The notes under the pieces: generated by a model
What the model was told of the DNA's origin: nothing
The model's input: the letters and a program-made list of their open reading frames with translations, nothing else
Database searches by the model: none
Translations under genes and position numbers: made by a program
Source of the DNA: Bacilli bacterium
GTDB taxonomy: Bacteria; Bacillota_I; Bacilli_A; RF39; UBA660
DNA length: 64,000 bases
Direction of reading: 5' to 3'
Assembly (NCBI GenBank): GCA_017406955.1
Contig: JAFQXM010000007.1
Location: 13,743 to 77,742, forward strand
Part shown: positions 16,873 through 49,807 of the stretch, one piece after another
Position numbering within the stretch: position 1 is the first letter of the stretch
How the letters are laid out: every line of letters begins with the position of its first letter

Positions 16873-16917
16873 ATATCATCTCCATTTAATTATATGTAAA
16901 AAAAAATGAGTTATGCT

Positions 16918-17715
16918 TTAACATAACTCATTACTAAGTTCTATAAATATAGAGTAATCTAATTGTTCAGCTCTTACTGATAAATCATAATTATACTTTT
17001 CTAATACCCTTAATACTTCATCTAAATTATATTTTTTTAAATTATTCTTTATATTTTTTCTTTTAAACTGAAAACTATCTCTTACTATCTTTTTAAAATA
17101 TTCTTTATCTTTTAAATATAATTTATCTTTTTTCTCTTTTAAAGATATTACTTCACTATCTACATTAGGTTTTGGTATAAATTCTTCTCTTGATACAAAA
17201 AATTCTTTTTTTATATCATAATAATAATTTAGCAATACTGTTATTGATCCATACTCTCTGTTACCTGGTAATGAAGACAATCTATCTGCAACCTCTTTTT
17301 GAACCATAATAGTTATTTTCTTAAAATTAATATTGCTGTCTGTTAATTTATTAATTATTGGTGTTGTTATATAATATGGAACATTACTAATGAAATATAT
17401 ATTATCATATTGTTCTTTTTCTATATCTTTTTTAATATTAGACTTTAAAAAATCTTGATATAAAACTTCTACATTAGAAAAATCAGATAATTTATTATCT
17501 AATTCATTTTTTAAATCTTCATCTATTTCATAAGATAATACTTTTTTCGCTAACTTAGCTAATTCTTTTGTGGGAATACCTCCACCTGGGCCTACTTCAA
17601 TAACTAAATCTTTTTTAGTTATTTTACAAGTATTTACTATTTTTTCTATAGTAGATTTGTCTTTTAAAAAGTTTTGTCCAAATTTCTTTTTGAATTTTAC
17701 ATTGTATTCTTCCAT
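16918..17715 (-). CDS. rsmA: 16S rRNA (adenine1518/1519-N6)-dimethyltransferase
   Basis: KKFGQNFL and EVGPGGGIPT SAM-binding motifs. Confidence 0.85.
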   Translation of the reverse strand: MEEYNVKFKKKFGQNFLKDKSTIEKIVNTCKITKKDLVIEVGPGGGIPTKELAKLAKKVLSYEIDEDLKNELDNKLSDFSNVEVLYQDFLKSNIKKDIEKEQYDNIYFISNVPYYITTPIINKLTDSNINFKKITIMVQKEVADRLSSLPGNREYGSITVLLNYYYDIKKEFFVSREEFIPKPNVDSEVISLKEKKDKLYLKDKEYFKKIVRDSFQFKRKNIKNNLKKYNLDEVLRVLEKYNYDLSVRAEQLDYSIFIELSNELC

Positions 17716-17725
17716 ATAATCTCCA

Positions 17726-18373
17726 TTATATTATTTCTAATTCTTCTTCTACTTCTTCTTTTTTATCATTATCATTAATATGTACTAATAATTTATAAAC
17801 GTCATAAATAATTATTACTGCCGCTGGAATTATAATAATTAATAACCAATATATGTTATTAGATAATACATTTCTAATATGTCCTACTTTAGGTATCATT
17901 AAAAATACTCTTCCGTATATATCTTCTTCTTTTACTAAATAAGAATCTTCAGAACTATTTGCATCTCCCTTAGTTCTAAAGTAAAATTTATTATAATCAG
18001 TTTTTTCTATACCTATAATTCTATGAGTAATTACTAATCCATTATATCTTTGATCATGAGTTTGAAATGTTATTATATCTCCTTGTTTTAATTTATTAGG
18101 TTTTTCTCGTTTAATAACAACTCCATCTTCTATTTTTATATTAGGAATCATACTACCACTAACTATAACATAAGCATTAAACAACGTTGGTCTATTATCT
18201 TTTTCGTTTATATTATGTAGTAAATTACCAAAATATAAACAAAATAAAGCATACATAATTGCGAATAATACAATTACTACATATAAAAAGATTTTAGTAA
18301 TAAAATGGCCTAAAAACTTTATTTTTTCTATAGTTGTCATACTAACATTAGTATTATTAAGTTCTGTATCCAT
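17726..18373 (-). CDS. sipW: SipW-type (archaeal/ER-type, S26B) signal peptidase I
   Basis: VSGSMIPNI (SGSMEP-like catalytic Ser) and TKGDANSSEDSYLVKEEDIYG (SipW TKGDAN box); N- and C-terminal TM segments. Confidence 0.75.
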   Translation of the reverse strand: MDTELNNTNVSMTTIEKIKFLGHFITKIFLYVVIVLFAIMYALFCLYFGNLLHNINEKDNRPTLFNAYVIVSGSMIPNIKIEDGVVIKREKPNKLKQGDIITFQTHDQRYNGLVITHRIIGIEKTDYNKFYFRTKGDANSSEDSYLVKEEDIYGRVFLMIPKVGHIRNVLSNNIYWLLIIIIPAAVIIIYDVYKLLVHINDNDKKEEVEEELEII

Positions 18374-18443
18374 TTTACCCCTCCTATCTATATTACAATA
18401 ATATCACTTTATTTTTTAAAAAACTACAAATTAATATAAAAAA

Positions 18444-18462
18444 AGAACTACTTTACAGTTCT
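18444..18462 (-). terminator. terminator after 197-aa paralog gene
   Basis: AGAACT...AGTTCT hairpin with an A7 run on the plus strand. Confidence 0.45.
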
Positions 18463-19055
18463 TATTTTACTTTACCATGTATTTTTGTAGAAATATGACA
18501 CTTTGTATTATCATTAACCTCAGTACCTTCTTTTATCCATACTTTTAATCTATATTTTTCTATTGCGTCTTTAGAATAACTACCATTAAATAATATCATT
18601 GATCCTTTAGGTGTCCCTAACTTACTTTTTTTCTTTATAGATTTAAAGCTTTTAGGATCAAATATCTTAATATAAGTTCCTTCGTTTTCTCTTTCTAAAT
18701 AAATTCTTAAATCGTTATCGTTGATATTACACTTAGAATCTTTTTCTACAACCACTTCATAAACAACCGTTTGTTTATCAGTTATTTTAGACTCCACATT
18801 AAAATTAAAATATCTACTTATATCCTTCTCTTTTTTACCATCTTCATCATTTTTAACAAAGTTTTTATCAACATCTATACCATTATTCTTATTGGAATAA
18901 GTTATATACATCATTTCTGTAATTTTTTTACCTTTAATCACTTTTTTACTTGCCTTATATTTTATAAATACAAAAGCTAATGTAAAAAACAATATAGAGG
19001 TAATAACTATTAATATTATTATAAATGTTTTATTTGTAACACCCTTTTTATCCAT
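18462..19055 (-). CDS. hypothetical membrane-anchored protein, paralog B of tandem pair
   Basis: N-terminal signal-anchor; shares YIT..GKKEK..YEVVV..RIYL..KVWI blocks with the adjacent 180-aa protein. Confidence 0.5.
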   Translation of the reverse strand: MDKKGVTNKTFIIILIVITSILFFTLAFVFIKYKASKKVIKGKKITEMMYITYSNKNNGIDVDKNFVKNDEDGKKEKDISRYFNFNVESKITDKQTVVYEVVVEKDSKCNINDNDLRIYLERENEGTYIKIFDPKSFKSIKKKSKLGTPKGSMILFNGSYSKDAIEKYRLKVWIKEGTEVNDNTKCHISTKIHGKVK

Positions 19056-19066
19056 ATTAATCCTCC

Positions 19067-19609
19067 TTAATTTAGTATATTTACACCTATCATTATTTCG
19101 AAATTTTTAGTTTCATTATTAATTGTATATGTATCAGCTAACCACATTTTATATTTAATATTAACTATATTACTTTTTTTAATAGTCCCAATATATATCT
19201 GTTTTGCATCTATATCTTTACTTGAACCTAATAGTTTATTAAAACTAATTGGCTTGCTTATTAATGGTTTTTGAGTATTGTTTTCCACCAAGTATACTCT
19301 TATATATTTATCATTAATAGAATTAGCTGAATTAATTTGCTTTACAAATATTTCATATTTAACTTTATCACTATTTAATTTATCTCCATTAACTTTAAAA
19401 TTAATAGAATAATCTTTAGATTTTTCTTTTTTACCTATTTCATCACTTAATGGAATAGAATTATTTATTTTTAATTTAGTATCACCAGTTATATATAAAT
19501 AATCTTTTTTATTAATTTTTTTCTTAGTAGTTAATAAAAATATTATACTAACAATCATTAATATAACCATAAAAATTATAAAAATTTCTCTATAATTATA
19601 TTTTTTCAT
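19067..19609 (-). CDS. hypothetical membrane-anchored protein, paralog A of tandem pair
   Basis: N-terminal signal-anchor IFIIFMVILMIVSIIFLL; about 25-30% identity blocks with paralog B. Confidence 0.5.
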   Translation of the reverse strand: MKKYNYREIFIIFMVILMIVSIIFLLTTKKKINKKDYLYITGDTKLKINNSIPLSDEIGKKEKSKDYSINFKVNGDKLNSDKVKYEIFVKQINSANSINDKYIRVYLVENNTQKPLISKPISFNKLLGSSKDIDAKQIYIGTIKKSNIVNIKYKMWLADTYTINNETKNFEIMIGVNILN

Positions 19610-19621
19610 ATATTACCCCTT

Positions 19622-20221
19622 TTAAAATCCCCATCTAACTATATCAAATTTAATATTATTTTGAGTTCTAAATCCACCCATATTTTTTTGTGTTTCAAAA
19701 AGTAAATCCAAGTGACTTCCTTTAATTGCACCTCCACGATCTAAGACAATAGCCATAACTGGTTCTGAATAAATACTAACATTATTAACCCTAATTATAC
19801 TACCACAAGGTATTCTCTTATCTGCCGCTAAAATTCGAATTTTTCCATATTTTGAATCATTATAATAAATATTACCATTCTTTACGTTTTGTGAAGGTTT
19901 GCATGCAGTATGTCCACCACAACCTTTACAATCAGGTCCATATCCAGTAAGTTTACCCAAAAAGGCAGATTCACCACCACCAACATTAACGACTGCTTCA
20001 TCAAAAGAATTATATACCTTTTGTTCGCTAGTTTCTGCTTTTCTCATCAAAGTATATGAATTAGATATATTAGCTACTGGAATCGATTTTATATTATTAA
20101 TATTACTTACTGTAGCCTTATCATGTTTAGCGCCAGAGGCTATTATAAATAAGAATATAAAAACTACTCCTAAATAACAACAGTATTTAAAATATTTAGA
20201 TAAATATTTCATCTTAAACAC
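19622..20221 (-). CDS. 3D-domain (MltA-like DPBB) cell-wall protein, YabE/YuiC-like
   Basis: Signal peptide/TM; C-terminal VLDRGGAIKGSHLDLLFET 3D-domain signature. Confidence 0.6.
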   Translation of the reverse strand: MFKMKYLSKYFKYCCYLGVVFIFLFIIASGAKHDKATVSNINNIKSIPVANISNSYTLMRKAETSEQKVYNSFDEAVVNVGGGESAFLGKLTGYGPDCKGCGGHTACKPSQNVKNGNIYYNDSKYGKIRILAADKRIPCGSIIRVNNVSIYSEPVMAIVLDRGGAIKGSHLDLLFETQKNMGGFRTQNNIKFDIVRWGF

Positions 20222-22589: not shown

Positions 22590-22860
22590 TCTTTCTAATG
22601 TATTAATTACATAAAAAAATTATTATAAACATAAGGACGAAATGTTCGCGGTACCACCTTATTTTATAATAATTTATATTATACACTTAAATAGTTAACG
22701 CCTATCTACGATTATACCTACATATCGATATAATAGTTCAGAAGCCATAGTTTATAAATTATTTATGTTCACTTTCACCTAGCAGAACTCTCTAAGATAA
22801 ATAGTTTTTATAAACCTCTTCATCAATACATTTCAAATATGCATTAGTATAACACAATTT
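22590..22860 (-). promoter_or_regulatory. T-box riboswitch leader (Met specifier) upstream of metG
   Basis: Minus-strand AAGGUGGUACCGCG matches the T-box consensus NGGGUGGNACCGCG. AGAGA motif and candidate AUG specifier lie upstream within a 284-nt leader. Confidence 0.6.
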
Positions 22861-23533: not shown

Positions 23534-24214
23534 TTATCGCGCTTTTATACTTTTTTCTTGTTTTTTATCTAATAAATAAGAATTGTTTTTAGTAAAAATA
23601 TATCTTTCACCTTGTTCTTTAACACTATTTATTAACGTTGTATCCTTAACTAATATCTTTATATCTATATCCTCTAATAATTGTTTCTTATATGTTTTAT
23701 TTAAATATTTATCAATATCAATATTAATATTATTTATAATAGATTGATCTGTGTTTTTTGTGAATATGTTGTTTACATTGTTTACAATTTTTTTGTTAAT
23801 ACTATCCTCTATATTCTTCTTTAAAGTCTTTTTTTGTTCTTTGTTAAATTTTAAGAAATCTTTTTTACTGAATTTTATTATAGTTGTATTTGTTTTAGGT
23901 TTAAAACTATCTACCACGGATTTGAACTCCTCTACTCTATCTTTTTTCATAAGATTAATCTTAGACATTAATTCTTCTCTATAATCTTCCAGCAATTTAT
24001 CTAATTTTTCAGCATTTAAAACTATTTTATATCTTTTAGCTATAGATAAAAACTTAGTTTTAATTACATCCATAGAATTAAGTGGAGGCTTTTTTATAAG
24101 TGAACCAATATCTTCATCAACTAAAGTTTTAGAATTATTCTTTAGTACTTCTATAACTGCTTTCTTATAATTATCTAAATTTTGTTGTCTAAAATCTTGT
24201 ACTGCTTCACTCAT
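23534..24214 (-). CDS. hypothetical K/E-rich coiled-coil protein
   Basis: 226 aa, no TM or signal peptide, low complexity; sits between mfd and spoVT. Confidence 0.35.
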   Translation of the reverse strand: MSEAVQDFRQQNLDNYKKAVIEVLKNNSKTLVDEDIGSLIKKPPLNSMDVIKTKFLSIAKRYKIVLNAEKLDKLLEDYREELMSKINLMKKDRVEEFKSVVDSFKPKTNTTIIKFSKKDFLKFNKEQKKTLKKNIEDSINKKIVNNVNNIFTKNTDQSIINNINIDIDKYLNKTYKKQLLEDIDIKILVKDTTLINSVKEQGERYIFTKNNSYLLDKKQEKSIKAR

Positions 24215-34944: not shown

Positions 34945-35030
34945 AAAATAAAACGTGCACATAAAAGTTAAATGTTAAGGCTGCTATCTTCCGATTCTGA
35001 CCTGGTTCCATCACTTTTATTGCACGTATA
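34945..35030 (-). ncRNA. ffs: small (4.5S-type) signal recognition particle RNA
   Basis: Minus-strand CCAGGUCAGAAUCGGAAGAUAGCAGCC matches SRP RNA domain IV (CCAGGUCAGGUCCGGAAGGAAGCAGCC). Closed by a 13-bp helix GUGCAAUAAAAGU/ACUUUUAUGUGCAC; U-rich tail. Confidence 0.7.
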
Positions 35031-35031
35031 T

Positions 35032-41507: not shown

Positions 41508-42641
41508 TTAATATGTTCTAATAGGTAAAACTAATTGAGTTAATGTTTCGTCATCTTTAGATTTTATAAGTATTGGTTTAATTTCTCCTACAAAATGAAT
41601 ATCCACAGTTTCTGCCTTAAAACTTTTTAAAGCTTCCATCATATATTTAGCACTAAAACTAATTTTTATATCTTCTTTATTATTTTTCTTTATATTCATC
41701 TTTTCTTCTACTCTACCTACTTCTGCAGATGAACTCTTTAAAGTTAATATATCTCCATTTGTTTCTAAAGTAACAATATTTTTTTCTTTATCACTAGTTA
41801 AAATACTAACTCTATCCACAACATTATAGAAATCTTCTAAATTAACACTAAGAGTCATTAATGAATCATCTGGTAATAAATTAGAAGTATTTGGATATGT
41901 TCCATTAATTAAACGAGATTCAAATTTAATGTTACCTGTTTTAAATAATATTTTATTATTAAATATATGTAATTCAACTTTTTCATTATCCCCAATTATT
42001 CTGGAAAACTCTACAATATTATGACTAGGTATAACTACATTATAATTTTCTTCACTTTCTGATTTTAATTTAATTATTTTCCTAGCTAATCTATAAGAAT
42101 CTGTAGAATTACATTCTAATACATCCCCTACTACATTAAAATTAATACCAGTAAGTACAGGTTTAGTTTCCTCATGTGAAGCTGCAAAAGATGTTTGATT
42201 AACAATATCTTTAAATATATCTGCATCTAATACAATTTTTTTCTTACTTTCTTCTAAAGCTATATTAGGATATTCATTTTTATTTATACCATTTAAATTA
42301 AATTCACTATTATCAGTATAAATAAGTATCTTTAATTCATCTATAACTTCTATATTAATATATTCATCTTGTAATTTTCTAACTATATCTAATATATATT
42401 TTCCTTGTATAACAATACTACCTTCTTTTTCTATATTAAAATCTTCATCTTTATCAGATTCTATAATAGTTTGAATAGTAATATCATTATCACTAGCTGT
42501 TAATATTAATTTTTTCTTTTTTAATTCAAATTTTACTCCAGATAAAACAGGTATTAAATTCTTAGTTGATATTGCTTTTGAAACTTTATTTAAAGCTTCT
42601 AATAATAATTCTCTTTTAATTTTAAATTTCATATTTTTCAA
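41508..42641 (-). CDS. dnaN: DNA polymerase III beta sliding clamp
   Basis: 377 aa with three-domain clamp architecture, directly downstream of dnaA. Confidence 0.9.
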   Translation of the reverse strand: MKNMKFKIKRELLLEALNKVSKAISTKNLIPVLSGVKFELKKKKLILTASDNDITIQTIIESDKDEDFNIEKEGSIVIQGKYILDIVRKLQDEYINIEVIDELKILIYTDNSEFNLNGINKNEYPNIALEESKKKIVLDADIFKDIVNQTSFAASHEETKPVLTGINFNVVGDVLECNSTDSYRLARKIIKLKSESEENYNVVIPSHNIVEFSRIIGDNEKVELHIFNNKILFKTGNIKFESRLINGTYPNTSNLLPDDSLMTLSVNLEDFYNVVDRVSILTSDKEKNIVTLETNGDILTLKSSSAEVGRVEEKMNIKKNNKEDIKISFSAKYMMEALKSFKAETVDIHFVGEIKPILIKSKDDETLTQLVLPIRTY

Positions 42642-42774
42642 TCCTTCTTTCTTATTTATTATTGTTTTATTTTTATTATTACTGTGGAAAAAGTTTAAAA
42701 TTATAATTTATCCTTATTTTATAAAGAAAATAATAAAATTTTATTGTGGATAAATATATGAATAATTTTATTTT
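42642..42774. promoter_or_regulatory. oriC downstream module: DnaA-box cluster plus AT-rich unwinding region (dnaA-dnaN intergenic)
   Basis: TGTGGAAAA (42683..42691), TTATCCTTA (42708..42716), perfect TGTGGATAA (42745..42753) within a >80% AT spacer. Confidence 0.7.
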
Positions 42775-44151
42775 TTACACAACACCTATATCTTTCTTTA
42801 ATTTTTCTATAATATTTTCTAAATCTTTATTTACCTTTATTTCTTTTTCTATTTTTTCACAAGAATGCATTACTGTAGTATGATCTTTCCCACCAAATTC
42901 TGTACCTATCTTAGGAAATGATTCACTAGTCATATTTCTACATAAATACATTGCAATCTGTCTTGGAAAAGAAATATTAGAACTTCTCTTTTTACTTTTA
43001 ATATCTTCAACAGATATTTGAAAGTAATCAGATACAATCTTTTGTATTCTATGGATATTATTTTTTTCTCCCATTCCTTTACTTATAAAGTCTTTCAAAG
43101 CTTCTATCGCAAGATCTAGAGTAATATCTGCACCACCCATTATAGTAGAATAAGCAATTAATCTAGTAATTGATCCTTCTAATTGTCTTACATCTGTACC
43201 TATATTAGAAGCAATATATTCAATAACATCATCAGGTATATCTTTTTCAAAATCTCCTGCAGCAATTTTTTTCTTAAGTATTTCAGTTCTTAAAGTAAAG
43301 TCAGGTGGAAATATATTAACTGTTAATCCCCAACAAAATCTTGTTCTTAAACGATCTTCTAATAATTTTAAATCATCTGGTGATCTATCTGATGAAATAA
43401 TAATTTGTTTACTATCATTATATAAAGAATTAAAAGTATGAAAAAATTCTTGTTGTGTTTGTGTTGCTCCTCCTAAAAATTGTATATCATCTATTATTAA
43501 AACATCTATATTTCTATACTTTTTCTTAAAAAAATCAACATAATTAAAGTTAGTTCCCTTATCATCCTTTTTATTTATACCTATAAAATCTTGTATAAAT
43601 TGATCACTGGTAACATATAAAACTTTCCTATTACTATTATTAGTAATATAATTACCTATAGCATGCATTAAATGTGTTTTACCAAGACCACTATTTCCAT
43701 ATATAAATAGAGGATTATACATATGACCAGGATTTTCTGCTACAGATAAAGCAGCAGCTTGTGCAAATTTATTAGTATCCCCTACTATAAAATTTTCAAA
43801 TGTATATTTACTTTTCAAATTAGTTTTTTCAAATTCTTGAGGTACTCCATCATTAATAACTTGATTTTTATTAATATTATCAGGAGGACTCTCATCTTTT
43901 TCAATCTCTTCATTTAATAAAAATATAAGTTCAAAATTAGTATTTGTAACATCATTTAATTTTTCTGTAATTAAATTATAATAATTATCAGATAAATGCT
44001 TTTTATGTATTGGCATTGGAACAATTATATAAGCTTTACCGTTTTCTAATTTATAAAGTTTCGTATCTTTAAACCATGTATCAAAAGACAGTGAAGTTAA
44101 TTCGTCTTTGATTTGTGATAAAAAATTAGACCATAAAATATCGACATTCAT
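42775..44151 (-). CDS. dnaA: chromosomal replication initiator DnaA
   Basis: Walker A GNSGLGKTHL, DnaA signature box, C-terminal HTH. ATG at 44151 preceded by GGGGAG; the track's TTG start at 44169 is an alternative. Confidence 0.95.
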   Translation of the reverse strand: MNVDILWSNFLSQIKDELTSLSFDTWFKDTKLYKLENGKAYIIVPMPIHKKHLSDNYYNLITEKLNDVTNTNFELIFLLNEEIEKDESPPDNINKNQVINDGVPQEFEKTNLKSKYTFENFIVGDTNKFAQAAALSVAENPGHMYNPLFIYGNSGLGKTHLMHAIGNYITNNSNRKVLYVTSDQFIQDFIGINKKDDKGTNFNYVDFFKKKYRNIDVLIIDDIQFLGGATQTQQEFFHTFNSLYNDSKQIIISSDRSPDDLKLLEDRLRTRFCWGLTVNIFPPDFTLRTEILKKKIAAGDFEKDIPDDVIEYIASNIGTDVRQLEGSITRLIAYSTIMGGADITLDLAIEALKDFISKGMGEKNNIHRIQKIVSDYFQISVEDIKSKKRSSNISFPRQIAMYLCRNMTSESFPKIGTEFGGKDHTTVMHSCEKIEKEIKVNKDLENIIEKLKKDIGVV

Positions 44152-44169
44152 TCCACCATCTCCCCACAA

Positions 44170-44470
44170 GATAAAAATTTCTTACCTAATATTTTATCTT
44201 AATTTGTGAAAAAAATAAACAAAAAATGGATAAAAAAATAAATCCACAAGTTATACACATACTTTTCCACTATAAAAATGATATAAAATAAGAAAAATAT
44301 AGAGTTTTCCACATTTTCCACAAATTTTAATTAACATTTGTTATTTTAATAATTAACATGCCTGTTAATTATGTGGATAAATAAAAATTATAAAAAAACC
44401 CCTATTTTAATTGACAAAACCCCTATATTATTATTATAATAATGTAGATTTATGTTTGGAGGTGGAGCAA
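44170..44470. promoter_or_regulatory. oriC upstream module: DnaA-box cluster with divergent dnaA and rpmH promoters
   Basis: AAATCCACA (44240..44248), TTTTCCACT (44263..44271), tandem TTTTCCACA x2 (44305..44322), perfect TGTGGATAA (44373..44381). rpmH promoter TTGACA (44411..44416), 18-nt spacer, TATAAT (44435..44440). Confidence 0.75.
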
Positions 44471-44593
44471 GTGAAAAGAACATATCAACCAAATAATCGT
44501 AAAAAATCTAAAACTTTTGGTTTTTTTGCACGTAAAAAAACAAATATATTAAATCGTCGTCGTCGTAAAGGTCGTAAGAGACTTTGTAAATAG
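44471..44593 (+). CDS. rpmH: 50S ribosomal protein L34
   Basis: GTG start after GGAGGTGGAG RBS; [18 protein letters not shown]...RKGRKRL, 40 aa. Track ORF starts too far upstream. Confidence 0.85.
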
Positions 44594-44644
44594 TATACCG
44601 CTGTTTCACAGTGGTTTTTTTACTAAATAGTATTAGGTGATAAT

Positions 44645-44962
44645 ATGAAAAAGAAATTTATAGTAAAAAAATCTTATGAATTCGATAATATTATTAAAAA
44701 TAATGATATTGTAAAAAATAAAGGATTCATAATATATAAAAAAGAAAATAAGTTAGATTATAATAGATTTGGAATAAGTGTAGGTAAAAAATTAGGTAAT
44801 GCAGTATATAGAAATAAGATGAAAAGAAGAATAAAAAATATAATAGATTCTATAAATACTAAAAACAATATAAATTATGATTATATAGTAATATTAAGAA
44901 GTATGGGAAAAAATTATAAATATAGAGAATTACAAGAAAAACTAACAGATCTATTAAAATAG
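44645..44962 (+). CDS. rnpA: RNase P protein component
   Basis: Basic RNR-like motif GISVGKKLGNAVYRNKMKRRIKN. Confidence 0.8.
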   Translation: MKKKFIVKKSYEFDNIIKNNDIVKNKGFIIYKKENKLDYNRFGISVGKKLGNAVYRNKMKRRIKNIIDSINTKNNINYDYIVILRSMGKNYKYRELQEKLTDLLK

Positions 44963-44974
44963 AAAGGATCAACT

Positions 44975-45904
44975 ATGAAAAAAAATAAATTAAAAATAAT
45001 ATTAATTATATTTGTTTTATTATTATCTACTGGATGTGCAAAAACATTAACAGATTCTCATAAAAAACCAGTAAAAAATGAAATAACAGGACAAAATTTA
45101 ACAAAAAATATAATTTGTCAGCCAACTAATAAAAAAACAATAGAATTATATGAGAAAAACAAAGTAAATATCAAAAAATTACCAAAATGTGAAGATTTTA
45201 AAGTAACAAATGGAAAATATGAAGGATTATGGACAAGTATATTTGTAAAACCGTTAGCATTTATTCTACTACTATTAGGAAAAAATATTGGAAATTATGC
45301 AATATCTTTAATAATAGTAAGTATATTAATAAGATTAATAGCATTTCCAATTACTAAAAAAACTGCAATGCAATCTGAATTATTAAAGAAAGCTCAACCA
45401 GAAATGGATAAAATACAAAAGAAATATAAAAATAATCAAGATAAAGATGCAATGATGAAACAAAGTCAAGAAATGATGATGGTTTATAAAAAATATAATA
45501 TAAGTCCAATGTCAGGATGTTTATTTGCAATGTTACAATTACCATTATTTATAGCATTCTTTGAAGCAGTACAAAGAACACCAGCTATATTTGAAGATAA
45601 ATTCTTATTATTACAACTAGGAACAACACCATCAGTTGGTATTAAATCCGCAGCATTTGTAGCTTACGCACTATTAATGATTCTAATTGCAGGAACAACA
45701 TTCTATTCATTAAAGATGAATATGACAGGAAACAATCAAGATCCAAATATGAAAAATATGCCATATATGATGAGTATAATTATTATAATAACTGCATTAT
45801 TTATGCCATCAGCATTAGGAATTTATTGGGTAACATCTAATGTATTTACAATATTCCAAAATATATTAGTGAAAAGGAGTAAAGAAGTAAATGGAAAAGC
45901 ATAG
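44975..45904 (+). CDS. yidC: membrane protein insertase YidC/SpoIIIJ (lipoprotein type)
   Basis: Lipobox LLSTGC; conserved YidC TM core PITKKTAMQS...NISPMSGCLFAMLQLPLFIAFF. Confidence 0.85.
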   Translation: MKKNKLKIILIIFVLLLSTGCAKTLTDSHKKPVKNEITGQNLTKNIICQPTNKKTIELYEKNKVNIKKLPKCEDFKVTNGKYEGLWTSIFVKPLAFILLLLGKNIGNYAISLIIVSILIRLIAFPITKKTAMQSELLKKAQPEMDKIQKKYKNNQDKDAMMKQSQEMMMVYKKYNISPMSGCLFAMLQLPLFIAFFEAVQRTPAIFEDKFLLLQLGTTPSVGIKSAAFVAYALLMILIAGTTFYSLKMNMTGNNQDPNMKNMPYMMSIIIIITALFMPSALGIYWVTSNVFTIFQNILVKRSKEVNGKA

Positions 45905-46508
45905 TTATACAGGTAAAACTAAAGAAGAAGCAATTGAAAATGCTAAAATAGATTTACAGGAATTAGAAGAAAATTTAATAATTAAAACTAAAGAAGAAGT
46001 AAAAGGTGGACTTTTTAAGAGTAAAAAAGTAGAAGTAGAAGTAATAGAAAAAAGAGAAATAGTTAAAGATTTAAAAGAATTTTTGATAAATTTATTAAAA
46101 AATCTAGGATTTCAATCAAATATAGAAGTAAAAGTAACAGATAATATTCCTAAATATACTATTTTTTCAGATAATGATTCTTTATTAATAGGAAAGAATG
46201 GTAAAAATTTACAAGCTTTATCTATAGTTACTAGTCAATATATTAAAAAAGAAGTTGGAAGTAACTATAAATTTATTATTGATGTTAATCAATATAAAGA
46301 AAAACATGAACGTCAAATAGAAAGACTTGCTAAAAGAACAGCTAGGGAAGTAGCTAAGACAAAAATAGAAGCTAAAATGGATTCAATGAATTCATATGAA
46401 AGAAGATTAGTACATAACATATTAAATAATAATAAAAGAGTTTATACAGAAAGTGAAGGGGAAGAACCTAATCGTTATGTAGTTATAAAACCAAAAGAAG
46501 ATGAATAA
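45891..46508 (+). CDS. jag: Jag/SpoIIIJ-associated protein (KH plus R3H)
   Basis: 205 aa; C-terminal R3H-like RRLVHNILNNNKRVYTESEGEEPNRYVVI. Confidence 0.75.
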   Translation: MEKHSYTGKTKEEAIENAKIDLQELEENLIIKTKEEVKGGLFKSKKVEVEVIEKREIVKDLKEFLINLLKNLGFQSNIEVKVTDNIPKYTIFSDNDSLLIGKNGKNLQALSIVTSQYIKKEVGSNYKFIIDVNQYKEKHERQIERLAKRTAREVAKTKIEAKMDSMNSYERRLVHNILNNNKRVYTESEGEEPNRYVVIKPKEDE

Positions 46509-46566
46509 ATCTTCTTTTTTTATGATTTTTCTGTTATAATATATCCAGTAAAAAAGGAGAAATACT

Positions 46567-47919
46567 ATGGAAGACACAATAGTTGCTATCTCTACATCTT
46601 TAGGAGTAGGGGCAATATCTATTATTAGACTTAGTGGAAAAGATGCTATTAAGATTGCTGATAGTGTTTTTAGTGGTGATTTAAAAGATAAAGAATCTCA
46701 TACAATTCACTATGGTTATATAAAAAACAAAGATGAAGTAATAGATGAAGTTTTAGTATCCATCTTAAAAGCTCCTAAAACATATACAACAGAAGATACT
46801 GTAGAAATAAATTGTCATGGTGGTATTTCAACTACTAATAAAGTATTAGAATTATTAATAAATAAAGGTGTCAGACTTGCAGAAGCCGGAGAATTTACAA
46901 AAAGAGCCTTCTTAAATGGAAGAATAGATTTAACAGAATCAGAAGCAGTAATGGATTTAATAGAAAGTAAAAGTGAAACATCTAGAAAAATGGCTATTTC
47001 TGCACTTCAAGGAAATACATCTAAAATGATAGAAAAATTTAGAGATGATATAAAAGATTTAATATCTAAAGTAGAAGTAAATATAGATTATCCAGAATAT
47101 TATGATATAGAAGTAATGACTATAGAGAGTATTAAAGACAAAGTATTAGAATTAAAAAATAATCTAAAAGAAATAATAAAAGAGTCTAAGAATACTAAAA
47201 TATTAAAAAATGGTATAAATACATTAATAATAGGAAGACCTAATGTAGGTAAAAGTAGTATTTTAAATAGATTCTTAGACGAAGAAAAAGCTATTGTTAC
47301 TGATATTGCTGGAACTACAAGAGATATTGTAGAAGGGGAAGTATTACTTAATAATATTCCTTTAAATATAATAGATACCGCAGGTATTAGAAATACAACT
47401 GATATAGTAGAAAAAAAAGGAGTAGAGAAGAGTTTATCTCTTATAGAAGCTGCCGACTTAGTAATAGTAGTATTAGATAGTAGTAATAAATTAACTAAAG
47501 AAGATAAAGAAATATTAGAAAAATCTAAAAATAAAACTACAATAGTAGTATTAAATAAAAATGATTTAGAAAATAAAATAGAAGAAAAAGAATTAAAAGA
47601 CTATGTAGTAGTAAGTACTAATACTAATAGTAATGAAGGAATCAAAGACTTAAAAAATAAAATAATAGAATTATTTAATTTAGAAAAAATAGAAACTAAA
47701 GATTATAAGTACTTAACTAATATAAGACAAATAACTAAAGCAGAAGAAGCATATAGAAAACTAGTTGAAGTAGAGAAGGGTATAAAAAATAATTTACCTA
47801 TTGATATGGTAGAAATAGATCTAAGAGATTGTTTTGATATATTAGGAGAAATAATAGGTAAAACTTATAGTGATGAAATAATAGATCACTTATTTGAAAA
47901 CTTTTGTGTAGGAAAGTAG
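46567..47919 (+). CDS. mnmE: tRNA modification GTPase MnmE
   Basis: G-domain GRPNVGKSS and DTAGIR; C-terminal CVGK motif. Confidence 0.9.
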
Positions 47920-47926
47920 TGATAAT

Positions 47927-49807
47927 ATGAAATATGAAGGGATTGTAGTAGGTGGAGGACATGCCGGTTGTGAAGCAGCTTTAGCTTTATCTAGAAAAAA
48001 TCATAAAACCTTACTTATTACTGGAAATATAGAAAATATTGCTGATATGCCATGTAATCCATCTGTTGGAGGTCCAGCTAAAGGAATAGTTGTAAGAGAA
48101 ATAGATGCTTTAGGTGGAGAAATGGGTAAATGCGCAGATAAAGCAGCCATTCAAGTAAAAATGTTAAATACTAAAAAAGGACCCGCAGTACAAGCATTAC
48201 GTGCTCAAGCAGATAAAAATATTTATCCTAAAGAAATGTTAAAAACATTAAAAAAAGAAAAAAATTTAGATATAAAAGAATCCTTAGTAGAACATTTAAT
48301 AGTAGAAGATAATAAAATAAAAGGAATAATATTAGAAGATAATACTAAAATAGAAGCAGATGTAGTAATTTTAACTACTGGAACATATCTAAAAGGAACA
48401 ATCCTAGTAGGAGATTCTAAAACACCAGGGGGACCTCATGGAGAAAGAGATTCTAAATATTTATCATATGATTTAAGAAATTTAGGTTTTAAAATATTAA
48501 GATTAAAAACAGGAACACCTCCTAGAGTAGATATATATACAATTGATTATAATAAAACAAAATTAGAACCAGGAGATAATAAAGAATTAACATTCTCTTT
48601 TGATAATAAAGCTTATTATGATTATAAAAAACAAATACCTTGCCACTTAGTATATACAAATCAAGAAACTCATGAAATTATTAATAAACACCTAGAAGAA
48701 TCAAGTATGTATGGGGGATATGCCGAAGGAGTAGGGCCTAGATATTGTCCATCTATAGAAGATAAAGTAGTAAGATTTGCAGATAAAGAAAGACACCAAT
48801 TATTCCTAGAACCAGAGTCTAATATAAAAGATGATCCTGAATATGGAAACACTATATATATTCAAGGTTTTTCAACATCTATGCCAGAATATGTACAAGA
48901 AGATATGGTACATTCTCTAAAAGGATTAGAAAATGCTAAAATATTAAAATATGCTTATGCTATAGAATATGATGCAATAGATTCTAGAAGTTTAAAACAA
49001 TCATTAGAAACTAAACTAGTAGAAGGATTATATACAGCCGGACAAATCAATGGAACTAGTGGTTATGAAGAAGCTGCTGGTCAAGGTTTAATTGCTGGTA
49101 TTAATGCAGCTTTAAAATTAGAAAAAAAAGAACCTTTAATCTTAAAAAGGAACGAAGCATACATAGGTGTATTAATAGATGATTTAGTAACTAAAGGAGT
49201 AAAAGATCCATATAGATTACTAACATCTCGTGCAGAATATAGATTATTATTAAGACATGATAATGCTGATATAAGACTAAGAGATTATGGATACCAAGTA
49301 GGTTTAATAAAAAAAGAAAAATATAATAAATTCTTAAATAAAAAGAAACAAATAGAAGAAGTATTTAATATATTAAAAGAAGAAAAAATCACACCTAAAA
49401 AAGATATAAACAAAAAATTAGAATTTATTGGTACTACACCATTAAAAGATGGTATAAGTTTATATAATTTATTAAAAAGACCAGAAATATCTATAGAAAA
49501 TATAAAAGAATTTATAGATTTAGATTATTCTAATGAAGTATTAGAACAAGTAGAAATAAATACTAGATACGAAGGATATATCAAAAAAGCTCTAAAAGAA
49601 GCAGATAAGATGCTAAATTTAGAAAATAAATCAATACCAGATGACATTAATTATGAAGATATTCCAAATATTGCTAGTGAAGCTAAACAAAAACTAAGTG
49701 AAATAAAACCTACATCTATTGGACAAGCCTCTCGTATAAGTGGAGTAAATCCCGCAGATATATCAATTTTAATGGTTTATTTAAGAAAGAATGGTAAATA
49801 TGAATAA
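47927..49807 (+). CDS. mnmG: tRNA uridine 5-carboxymethylaminomethyl modification enzyme MnmG
   Basis: FAD-binding [10 protein letters not shown]; 626 aa. Confidence 0.9.

What the first reader, a model, noticed from the sequence alone, without database searches (positions are those of the whole stretch)
17726..19609. SipW-type signal peptidase with two tandem paralogous membrane-anchored proteins inserted between yabE-like and ksgA
In Bacillus the gene between yabE and ksgA is rnmV. Here that slot holds a three-gene island. Two paralogous proteins (180 and 197 aa) each have a single N-terminal signal-anchor and share sequence blocks (YIT..GKKEK, YEIFV/YEVVV, IRVYL/LRIYL, KMWL/KVWI). They are followed by an S26B/SipW-type signal peptidase (SGSM..P and TKGDAN boxes). 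In B. subtilis SipW is dedicated to processing the biofilm-matrix proteins TapA/TasA. By analogy the two paralogs are candidate cognate secreted or fibre-forming substrates. I could not convincingly align them to TasA/camelysin, so they may represent a new substrate family.
Basis: partly seen in the sequence, partly recalled or inferred. Interest (0 to 1): 0.65.

Follow-up and report, generated by a model that had tools for sequence, protein, structure and literature searches.

The report
Signal peptidase operon with new surface-protein family
Three adjacent genes encode a SipW-like signal peptidase and two related membrane-anchored proteins from a large, so far unnamed family; the same operon occupies the same chromosomal slot in a whole group of uncultured gut Bacilli and probably builds a cell-surface structure.

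Summary
Window 17726-19609 (- strand) holds two paralogs (180 and 197 aa; BLASTP E 2e-10) followed by an ER/archaeal-type (SipW-type) signal peptidase whose catalytic Ser, His and Asp boxes are intact.

It is not a recent island. In 55 of 55 informative related genomes, 2-5 paralogs directly precede the peptidase, always between tatD and ksgA.

The paralogs belong to a large family with no Pfam or NCBIfam model (1146 representative clusters). Each member has an N-terminal hydrophobic helix and a nine-strand jelly-roll domain (AlphaFold pLDDT 92). Many members, and nearly all long ones fused to adhesin-type repeats, carry a TasA/CalY-like signal peptide (..G-V-S-Y-A-A-F..).

The two window proteins have lost that cleavage motif. 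They most likely stay in the membrane as anchor-type members. The window operon is also the minimal form of a larger system found in relatives.

Verdict: a real SipW-plus-cognate-family operon, a new variant of a known kind. Whether these two proteins are themselves substrates remains doubtful.

The parts
19067..19609 (-). P180, the first-gene paralog. It has a short basic N-terminus, a 20-residue uncharged helix (IFIIFMVILMIVSIIFLLTT), a Lys-rich linker, then the family beta-domain. The signal region is degenerate ('d' type): no Ala and no [ST][YF]A site.
   Evidence: ORF. Paralogous to P197. Matches the family HMM at 3e-34, but P180 is a row of A2, the alignment that HMM was built from. On its own it finds the distant relative P0013. 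It clusters with the first-gene group, of which 41/46 are degenerate.
18462..19055 (-). P197, the second paralog. Predicted TM helix at residues 8-36, linker 37-46, and a nine-strand jelly-roll beta-sandwich at 47-196. The signal region is degenerate. A Cys109/Cys186 pair is conserved in close orthologs.
   Evidence: ORF. AlphaFold2 with a 49-sequence alignment gives pLDDT 92.3 and pTM 0.74. Family profile search. Alignment of the signal region.
17726..18373 (-). SipW-type (S26B, ER/archaeal-type) signal peptidase I. It has an N-terminal TM segment; the catalytic boxes SGSM (Ser74), ITHRI (His117) and TKGDAN (Asp137); a C-terminal TM segment; and an acidic cytoplasmic tail ending EEELEII.
   Evidence: TIGR02228 at 90.8 bits against a cutoff of 51.85. 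Alignment to SEC11A/C. Ser, His and the TKGD.N box are invariant in 57/57 peptidases of the set (55 genome loci, L005 and the window).
18374..18461 (-). An 88-nt spacer between P197 and the peptidase gene. It contains a weak 5-bp hairpin followed by a T-run (GAACTgtaaagtAGTTC-TTTTTTT) and the peptidase ribosome-binding site (GGAGGGG).
   Evidence: Read directly from the sequence. The terminator scan does not call it, so it may attenuate transcription but is not shown to terminate it.
16905..16932 (-). A strong intrinsic-terminator-like hairpin (12-bp stem plus T-run) just after ksgA. It is the likely 3' end of the transcription unit that includes the three genes.
19622..20221 (-). The 3D-domain (yabE-like) gene directly upstream, 12 nt from P180. 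It is context, probably co-transcribed. A 3D-domain gene also heads the operon in the distant relatives L065 and L066, and BLASTP found it in L006 and L007 (none at E<=1e-5 in the other loci of the survey).
   Evidence: Pfam 3D at 31.5 bits. Synteny.

Best explanation
The three genes are the minimal form of an operon inherited vertically across a clade of uncultured gut Bacilli. The operon pairs a dedicated ER/archaeal-type (SipW-like, Ser-His) signal peptidase with members of a previously unannotated family of cell-surface proteins. Each family member has an N-terminal hydrophobic helix followed by a ~150-residue jelly-roll domain.

The family comes in two forms. 'Canonical' members carry a TasA/CalY-class signal peptide (h-region ending G-[IV]-[ST]-[YF]-A|A-F) followed by a conserved first beta-strand. 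They include nearly all long members, which carry Big_2, Listeria-Bacteroides-repeat or F5/8-C domains. I infer that these are the peptidase's substrates and are released from the membrane. 'Degenerate' members have lost the cleavage motif. I infer that they remain type II membrane anchors (N-in, domain outside).

Both window proteins, P180 and P197, are degenerate. They most likely form a membrane-anchored pair, either a base or receptor on which processed family members dock, or a stand-alone surface module. The peptidase is still catalytically intact, so it presumably processes canonical family members encoded elsewhere in the genome.

Shown: the genes, the paralogy, the peptidase type, the conserved linkage and position, the fold class, and the two signal types. 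Inferred: cleavage or non-cleavage, topology, docking or strand complementation, and surface function.
For: Linkage: in 55 of 55 informative loci from different species-level genomes, 2-5 paralogs directly precede the peptidase on the same strand. The same holds in the distant relatives L005 and L063-L067.

Position: wherever the contigs reach that far, the operon lies between tatD (sometimes with a 3D-domain gene) and ksgA; ksgA is 53-72% identical to the window's.

Peptidase: Ser, His and TKGD.N are invariant in 57/57, including the 25 operons of the window type.

Family size: 1146 representatives at E<=1e-3 and 390 at E<=1e-10. No Pfam or NCBIfam model matches.

Signal types: canonical ..G[IV][ST][YF]A[AV]F.. 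versus degenerate. Operon architectures: dd-SPase in 25 loci, ddC-SPase in 14, and the rest contain more canonical members.

Length and signal type: members over 320 aa are canonical in 39/42 cases; members of 235 aa or less are degenerate in 68 cases and canonical in 24. The long ones carry Big_2, Flg_new or F5/8-C domains.

Off-operon substrate: P0226 (364 aa, signal VIGITYA|GF) comes from the same MAG as P0005, a 57%-identical relative of P197, and lies elsewhere in that genome.

Resemblance to TasA: the signal c-region, the first strand and the NLKPGD-like loop align by hhalign at E 1e-3. The first strand (residues 47-53) is as conserved as the core strands.

Fold: nine-strand jelly-roll, pLDDT 92.

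Precedent from the literature: SipW processes TasA and TapA, and SipW processes BsaA (PMC9245690, PMC11580942).
Against: No cleavage predictor or experiment was available. 'Uncleaved' rests on the loss of the -3/-1 motif and on alignment, and ER-type peptidases may tolerate other sites; P197 has possible TLA|F and YKA|S sites.

In the window lineage the stretch after the helix is very Lys-rich (7 of 13 residues in P197). By the positive-inside rule this argues against export of the domain. It may instead reflect the 22% GC genome, since relatives have acidic or neutral flanks.

No canonical family member was found in the 64-kb window, and the rest of the genome could not be searched.

Docking between anchor-type and processed members is pure inference.
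Confidence: 0.5

Rival explanations
1. P180 and P197 are themselves cleaved by the adjacent peptidase at non-canonical sites. They are secreted and polymerise into TasA-like fibres by donating their N-terminal strand.
Against: No candidate cleavage site is conserved among orthologs (P0005-P0007, L006, L007). The residue aligned to the canonical -1 Ala is Ile in P197, and P180 has no Ala in the region. The uncharged stretches of 20-22 residues followed by Lys-rich flanks look like signal anchors. With a deep alignment the first strand packs into the monomer with high confidence. The fold match to TasA is not specific.
Confidence: 0.2
2. The degenerate paralogs are not substrates. They are accessory or regulatory subunits of the peptidase, analogous to SPC22/23 (SPCS3) of the eukaryotic signal peptidase complex. 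SPCS3 is a single-pass type II protein whose luminal beta-domain packs against SEC11.
For: The peptidase is of the SEC11 type. The predicted topology and size of the paralogs (one TM helix plus a ~150-aa beta-domain) resemble SPCS3 as I recall it. At least one degenerate paralog is present in most operons, and the first-gene group is degenerate in 41/46 cases.
Confidence: 0.12
3. The paralogs are type IV-pilin-like subunits of the archaeal type. They would keep the hydrophobic helix as the filament core.
For: The family profile's best PDB sequence hits are archaeal pilins: 6nav at E 0.002, 8tib at 0.01, then 8fjs and 6w8x. The alignment spans the helix and the first strands.
Against: The E-values are marginal and come largely from the hydrophobic helix. 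Conservation lies at the C-terminal end of the h-region (the SPase I c-region), not before it as in class III signals. No prepilin peptidase, ATPase or platform gene lies in or next to any of the operons. The linked protease is an S26 signal peptidase.
Confidence: 0.04

Closest known systems
tapA-sipW-tasA operon of Bacillus subtilis (also calY/tasA-sipW of the B. cereus group and sipW-bsaA-bsaB-bsaC of Clostridium perfringens)
   Same: Both have a dedicated SipW-type (S26B) signal peptidase in one operon with two or more paralogous secreted or anchored beta-rich proteins. Canonical members of the new family carry the same class of signal peptide (..G-x-[ST]-[WYF]-A-[AY]-F..), followed about 10 residues later by a conserved strand (xTGTIxM vs ASGTLDL). 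Both have a jelly-roll-type domain. One component plays an anchor-like role (TapA there; the degenerate paralogs here, by inference).
Archaeal bundling pili (AbpA/AbpB) and cannulae (CanA/CanX): donor-strand-exchange fibres of TasA-like jelly-roll subunits
   Different: There is no sequence relationship, and the structural similarity is weak. The archaeal systems have no dedicated peptidase gene (PMC9245690). No evidence for polymerisation was obtained here.
Eukaryotic/archaeal signal peptidase SEC11 (S26B) and its complex
   Same: The window peptidase aligns to SEC11A/C across the catalytic Ser, His and Asp boxes (E 5.6e-7). It exceeds the curated cutoff of TIGR02228 (sigpep_I_arch).
   Different: It is a bacterial protein with an extra C-terminal TM segment and an acidic tail. 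No homologs of SPCS1, SPCS2 or SPCS3 were detected.

Membership tests
S26B / SipW-type (ER-archaeal type) signal peptidase I (TIGR02228) | Score above the curated family cutoff | tested here: met
   TIGR02228 at 90.8 bits against a cutoff of 51.85. Pfam Peptidase_S26 scores only 20.2 against 22.9.
S26B / SipW-type (ER-archaeal type) signal peptidase I (TIGR02228) | Catalytic Ser (SxSM box), His in place of the Lys of P-type peptidases (box D), and the conserved GDxN Asp (box E) | tested here: met
   SGSM, ITHRI and TKGDAN align to SGSM, IVHRV and TKGDNN of SEC11A/C. Ser, His and TKGD.N are invariant in all 57 peptidases aligned.
S26B / SipW-type (ER-archaeal type) signal peptidase I (TIGR02228) | Orthology to Bacillus SipW (NF046067 equivalog) | tested here: not met
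   77.5 bits against a cutoff of 190. It is SipW-type but not the Bacillus SipW equivalog.
S26B / SipW-type (ER-archaeal type) signal peptidase I (TIGR02228) | Demonstrated cleavage of neighbouring gene products | not testable with these tools
   This needs expression with a wild-type versus Ser-to-Ala peptidase, plus N-terminal mass spectrometry.
TasA / camelysin family (Pfam PF12389 Peptidase_M73; NCBIfam NF046066) | Sequence match to the family model | tested here: not met
   There is no Peptidase_M73 hit for P180 or P197 at E<=1. NF046066 matches 1 of 49 family members, at E 0.012. The family profile finds no TasA chain among PDB sequences at E<=10.
TasA / camelysin family (Pfam PF12389 Peptidase_M73; NCBIfam NF046066) | Profile-profile homology | tested here: inconclusive
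   hhalign of A2 against a six-sequence TasA-family alignment gives probability 21.6%, E 1e-3 and 80 columns, covering the signal end, the first strand, the NLKPGD-like loop and the next strands. Against TasA alone the probability is 10%.
TasA / camelysin family (Pfam PF12389 Peptidase_M73; NCBIfam NF046066) | SipW-class signal peptide (..G-G-T-[WYF]-A-[AY]-F..) | tested here: not met
   This result applies to the two window proteins: P197 has ..TLAFVFIKYKA.. with Ile aligned to the -1 Ala, and P180 has no Ala. The feature is met by many other family members.
TasA / camelysin family (Pfam PF12389 Peptidase_M73; NCBIfam NF046066) | TasA-like jelly-roll fold | tested here: inconclusive
TasA / camelysin family (Pfam PF12389 Peptidase_M73; NCBIfam NF046066) | Operon linkage to a SipW-type peptidase | tested here: met
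   55 of 55 informative genome loci, plus distant relatives.
TasA / camelysin family (Pfam PF12389 Peptidase_M73; NCBIfam NF046066) | Fibre formation by donor-strand exchange | not testable with these tools
   Only single-chain prediction was available. This needs AlphaFold-Multimer, EM or cryo-EM.
Archaeal-type type IV pilins | Class III signal with a prepilin-peptidase site before the hydrophobic helix; T4P machinery genes nearby | tested here: not met
   Conservation lies at the C-terminal end of the h-region. No A24 peptidase, PilB or PilC genes occur in any locus. Sequence hits to pilins are marginal (E 0.002-0.01).
SPC22/23 (SPCS3)-like signal peptidase complex subunit | Sequence or fold similarity to SPCS3 | tested here: not met

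The most novel reading that the evidence does not exclude
The family and its dedicated SipW-type peptidase, together with the X230 and Y160 membrane proteins in full versions, form a new cell-surface display or fibre system that is universal in an order-level clade of uncultured gut Bacilli. In this system, uncleaved stand-alone paralogs such as P180 and P197 are membrane anchors. Signal-peptidase-processed members, including large adhesins with Big_2 or Listeria-Bacteroides repeats, attach to them through their shared N-terminal jelly-roll domain by strand complementation. This would be a sortase-independent way of holding surface proteins on a Gram-positive cell.
Probability: 0.25. Interest if true: 0.75.

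Novelty: new variant of a known kind. Interest (0 to 1): 0.5.

Why it matters
Dedicated SipW-type peptidases are known to mark operons for biofilm-matrix fibres: TasA/TapA, CalY and BsaA.

This work defines a new, large and completely unannotated protein family: more than 1100 clusters at 50% identity, with no Pfam or NCBIfam model. The family is tied to such a peptidase in every genome examined from a clade of uncultured, spore-forming, low-GC gut Bacilli from ruminants, rabbits, chickens, mice and humans. The operon always lies in the same origin-proximal housekeeping slot.

The family splits into cleavable members, often long and adhesin-like, and non-cleavable short members. This gives a concrete, testable hypothesis for how these organisms display surface proteins or build a matrix. 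It also provides a set of sequences for defining a new family model.

For the window itself the result is more modest. It carries the reduced, anchor-only version of the system.

Tried and rejected
1. Direct annotation of P180 and P197 with Pfam and NCBIfam gave only sub-threshold noise driven by the TM segment.
2. Word-seeded homolog searches with each single protein found only 6-7 close relatives. The family became visible only with the exhaustive profile search.
The narrower alignment A3 worked, but it biases the 57 loci towards the P197-like subfamily.
6. The type IV pilin idea, raised by the PDB sequence hits, was rejected. There is no class III signal and no pilus machinery.
7. The SPCS3-like accessory-subunit idea is kept as a minor rival. 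It has no sequence or fold support.
8. The 'horizontally acquired island' idea was rejected, on normal base composition and clade-wide synteny.
9. Literature searches for TIGR04088, and for SipW together with Erysipelotrichaceae, found nothing.
10. A motif search for an rnmV-like Toprim ORF in the window found none, but this is a weak test.
Full report
**What is there.** On the - strand of the window, three ORFs lie between a 3D-domain (yabE-like) gene at 19622-20221 and ksgA at 16918-17715:
- P180 at 19067-19609
- P197 at 18462-19055
- a 215-aa protein at 17726-18373

Each has a Shine-Dalgarno-like sequence. The genes are 10-12 nt from their neighbours, except for an 88-nt spacer before the third gene. 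The only terminator called by the scan lies after ksgA, at 16932-16905. The three genes are therefore probably transcribed together with the surrounding housekeeping genes. GC content (0.20-0.24) matches the flanks.

The window also holds dnaA (42775-44169), dnaN, mnmE/mnmG and mfd. The locus therefore lies about 25 kb from the replication origin, in the region equivalent to metS-yabD-yabE-rnmV-ksgA-yabG-veg...spoVG...spoVT...yabP-yabQ-divIC...tilS-ftsH of B. subtilis. That gene order is from my own knowledge. The window genes were identified.

**Checking the observation.**
- P180 and P197 are paralogs: BLASTP E 2e-10, 28% identity.
- The 215-aa protein is an ER/archaeal-type signal peptidase I. 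It scores 90.8 bits against TIGR02228 (cutoff 51.85), but only 77.5 bits against the Bacillus SipW equivalog (cutoff 190).
- It aligns to human SEC11A/C through the SGSM (Ser), ITHRI (His) and TKGDAN (Asp) boxes.

**The paralogs belong to a large, unannotated family.** Pfam and NCBIfam give nothing for either protein. Word-seeded searches found only 6-7 close homologs each. An exhaustive profile search of 1.84 billion representatives found 1146 proteins at E<=1e-3 and 390 at E<=1e-10. The hits are either ~200-aa stand-alone proteins or the N-terminal module of proteins of 300-1743 aa. The long proteins continue into Big_2, Listeria-Bacteroides repeat (Flg_new) or F5/8-type-C domains. Scanning 49 diverse members individually against Pfam and NCBIfam gave no consistent hit.

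**Fold.** With a 49-sequence alignment, AlphaFold2 gives a confident model of P197 (pLDDT 92.3, pTM 0.74). It shows a helix at residues 8-36, a linker at 37-46 and a nine-strand beta-sandwich at 47-196.
- Foldseek finds nothing at E<1e-3.
- The family profile's best PDB sequence hits are archaeal type IV pilins (E 0.002-0.01). These alignments are dominated by the hydrophobic helix.

**Signal peptides come in two kinds.** Many members have a basic n-region and an h-region ending in G-[IV]-[ST]-[YF]-A-[AVT]-F. About ten residues later comes a conserved strand..N-x-I-x-T-G-x-I-x-M-x-Y-T-E.., and then N-G-I-x-I-x-N-A-x-P-x-x-D-x-x-G-K. TasA and CalY show the same pattern: GGGT[WY]A[AY]F.., then ..A[SA]GTLDLS.., then ..NLKPGD...

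It proved usable, because it retrieves annotated 'TasA family protein' genes on 129 Bacillus plasmids. hhalign results were:
- family alignment against TasA alone: 45 N-terminal columns, probability 10%
- family alignment against a six-sequence TasA-family alignment: 80 columns, probability 21.6%, E 1e-3

This is a suggestive resemblance in design. It does not demonstrate homology.

Other members, including both window proteins, lack the motif. In P197 the residue aligned to the -1 Ala is Ile30 (FFTLAFVFIKYKASKK). P180 has no Ala at all (IVSIIFLLTTKKKINKK). Each has 20-22 uncharged residues followed by a Lys-rich stretch. Possible alternative sites in P197 (TLA|F, YKA|S) are not conserved in its orthologs.

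Among the 149 best representative hits:
- members over 320 aa have the canonical signal in 39 of 42 cases
- members of 235 aa or less are degenerate in 68 cases and canonical in 24

**Linkage and synteny.** A scan of one genome per species returned 57 loci. All come from MAGs labelled uncultured Bacilli, Tenericutes, Mycoplasmatota, Erysipelotrichaceae or Candidatus Faecimonas, from animal and human guts. I called ORFs and searched them with a family HMM and a peptidase HMM.
- In 55 loci, 2-5 tandem family genes are directly followed by the peptidase on the same strand.
- The other two loci end at a contig edge right after the paralogs.
- Wherever the sequence reaches that far, tatD lies upstream and ksgA-yabG-veg-spoVG-yabP lies downstream.
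- Ser, His and TKGD.N are invariant in all 57 peptidases.

Operon architectures, by signal type of the paralogs before the peptidase:

| Architecture | Loci |
|---|---|
| two degenerate paralogs + peptidase (the window type) | 25 |
| two degenerate + one canonical + peptidase | 14 |
| mostly canonical paralogs | the rest |

About 20 loci have a fuller system, as do the more distant relatives L005 and L065-L067, which occupy the same tatD-ksgA slot. After the peptidase they carry:
- a further short degenerate paralog
- a ~230-aa single-pass protein ending W[YF]V[DE]EFGG
- a ~160-aa four-helix membrane protein

Neither of the last two has a Pfam match. The window operon is therefore the minimal form of a larger system that was probably ancestral. 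It is not an inserted island.

**How it probably works.** What is shown is a dedicated, catalytically intact SipW-type peptidase strictly linked to a family of helix-plus-jelly-roll proteins, part of which carries a TasA-class signal peptide.

From this I infer that canonical members are processed by this peptidase and released to the cell surface. Degenerate members such as P180 and P197 would remain type II membrane proteins with the domain outside. A Cys pair conserved in P197 orthologs fits an extracytoplasmic location, but only weakly.

The short-degenerate versus long-canonical dichotomy suggests an anchor/passenger arrangement, in which processed members dock on anchored ones through the shared domain. 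The known precedents are TapA/TasA strand complementation (PMC10151520, PMC9674648) and the proposal that BsaA oligomers assemble at the membrane around SipW cleavage (PMC11580942).

In operons of the window type, the peptidase's substrates would be encoded elsewhere. In the MAG that carries the 57%-identical relative P0005, a 364-aa family member with a canonical signal (VIGITYA|GF) lies at another locus. I could not search the rest of the window's genome.

**Rivals.**
This is possible because linkage is strict even in degenerate-only operons. It is disfavoured because no site is conserved.
- The paralogs are SPCS3-like accessory subunits of the peptidase. The topology fits, but there is no sequence or fold support, and the family's cleavable and adhesin-fused members argue against it.
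- The paralogs are type IV pilin-like subunits. This is largely refuted.

One caution for my preferred reading: in the window lineage the Lys-rich stretch after the helix runs against the positive-inside rule for an exported domain. Relatives have neutral or acidic flanks, and the genome has 22% GC, so this may simply reflect composition.

**Comparison with known systems and novelty.** The system works like the SipW-plus-cognate-substrate operons tapA-sipW-tasA, calY and bsaABC. The substrate family fails the TasA/Peptidase_M73 sequence tests and is only weakly similar in fold. The gene order, the chromosomal context and the extra components also differ.

I found no paper on this family. I rate it a new variant of a known kind, of moderate interest (0.5). 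The family and its clade-wide operon are new and testable. The window carries only the reduced version, and the function remains inferred.

Noticed in passing
window 17726-17760 (C-terminus of the peptidase); also L006-L063: Many of the linked peptidases carry, after their C-terminal TM segment, a cytoplasmic tail of variable length. The tail ends in a conserved acidic motif (D/E)(D/E)(I/L)E(I/V)(I/L): EEELEII in the window, DDDIEVI, DDIDYL or EEVEII elsewhere. From my own knowledge, the C-terminal tail of B. subtilis SipW has a peptidase-independent role in biofilm signalling, so this tail may have a partner.
   Followed up: partly
L065 10873-12038; L066 9053-10236; L067 10966-12218; L005 2310-3017: Fuller versions of the operon carry two further conserved genes with no Pfam match. 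One is a ~230-aa single-pass protein ending W[YF]V[DE]EFGG. The other is a ~160-aa four-helix membrane protein. They are present in about 20 of the 57 genome loci, almost all of which have canonical-signal paralogs. They are absent from the window.
   Followed up: partly
L005 212-898; L065 9001-9672; L067 9001-9681 (proteins P0013, P0163, P0177): One subfamily has a ~40-residue cytoplasmic extension before the hydrophobic helix, with a conserved motif (D/E)(L/V)AD(K/Q/I)VA(D/N)EIL. This is unusual for a plain signal peptide and suggests a cytoplasmic interaction before export or cleavage.
   Followed up: no
representative-search hits P0014-P0162: Long family members (over 320 aa, with Big_2, Flg_new or F5/8-C domains) almost always have the canonical cleavable signal (39/42). 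Stand-alone ~200-aa members are mostly degenerate (68 vs 24).
   Followed up: yes
window 22630-22835 (-): A T-box leader (109 bits) lies upstream of metG, as expected for a Firmicute aminoacyl-tRNA synthetase gene. The SRP RNA is at 34946-35031 (-).
   Followed up: no
window 41508-49807: This is the chromosomal origin region: dnaA (42775-44169, -), dnaN (41508-42641, -), then a strand switch to mnmE and mnmG on the + strand. The gap at about 44.2-44.6 kb is the likely oriC. The operon lies about 25 kb away, with its genes oriented away from the origin (co-directional with replication).
   Followed up: partly
window 23534-24214 (-): A 226-aa Lys-rich protein with no Pfam match lies between mfd and spoVT. 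A gene of similar size (226 or 217 aa) occupies the same position in L001, L002, L063 and L064. Its function is unknown.
   Followed up: no
L006, L020, L057, L058: Four MAGs labelled 'uncultured Muribaculaceae' (Bacteroidota) carry this Bacilli-type sporulation-gene neighbourhood (spoVT where the contig reaches upstream, then yabG, veg, spoVG and yabP where it reaches downstream). L006 is 72-92% identical to the window's proteins apart from veg (60%). The bins are probably mislabelled or contaminated.
   Followed up: no
window 17715-20221: The slot that holds rnmV in B. subtilis (gene order from my own knowledge) has no rnmV here. A simple Toprim-motif search found no rnmV-like ORF anywhere in the 64-kb window, so the gene may be elsewhere or lost.
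   Followed up: partly
window 18462-19055 (P197 residues 109 and 186): A pair of cysteines (..SKCN.. and ..TKCHI..) is conserved in P197 orthologs down to about 37% identity (P0001-P0007, P0014). It is absent from P180 and from most of the family. It may be a lineage-specific disulfide.
   Followed up: no
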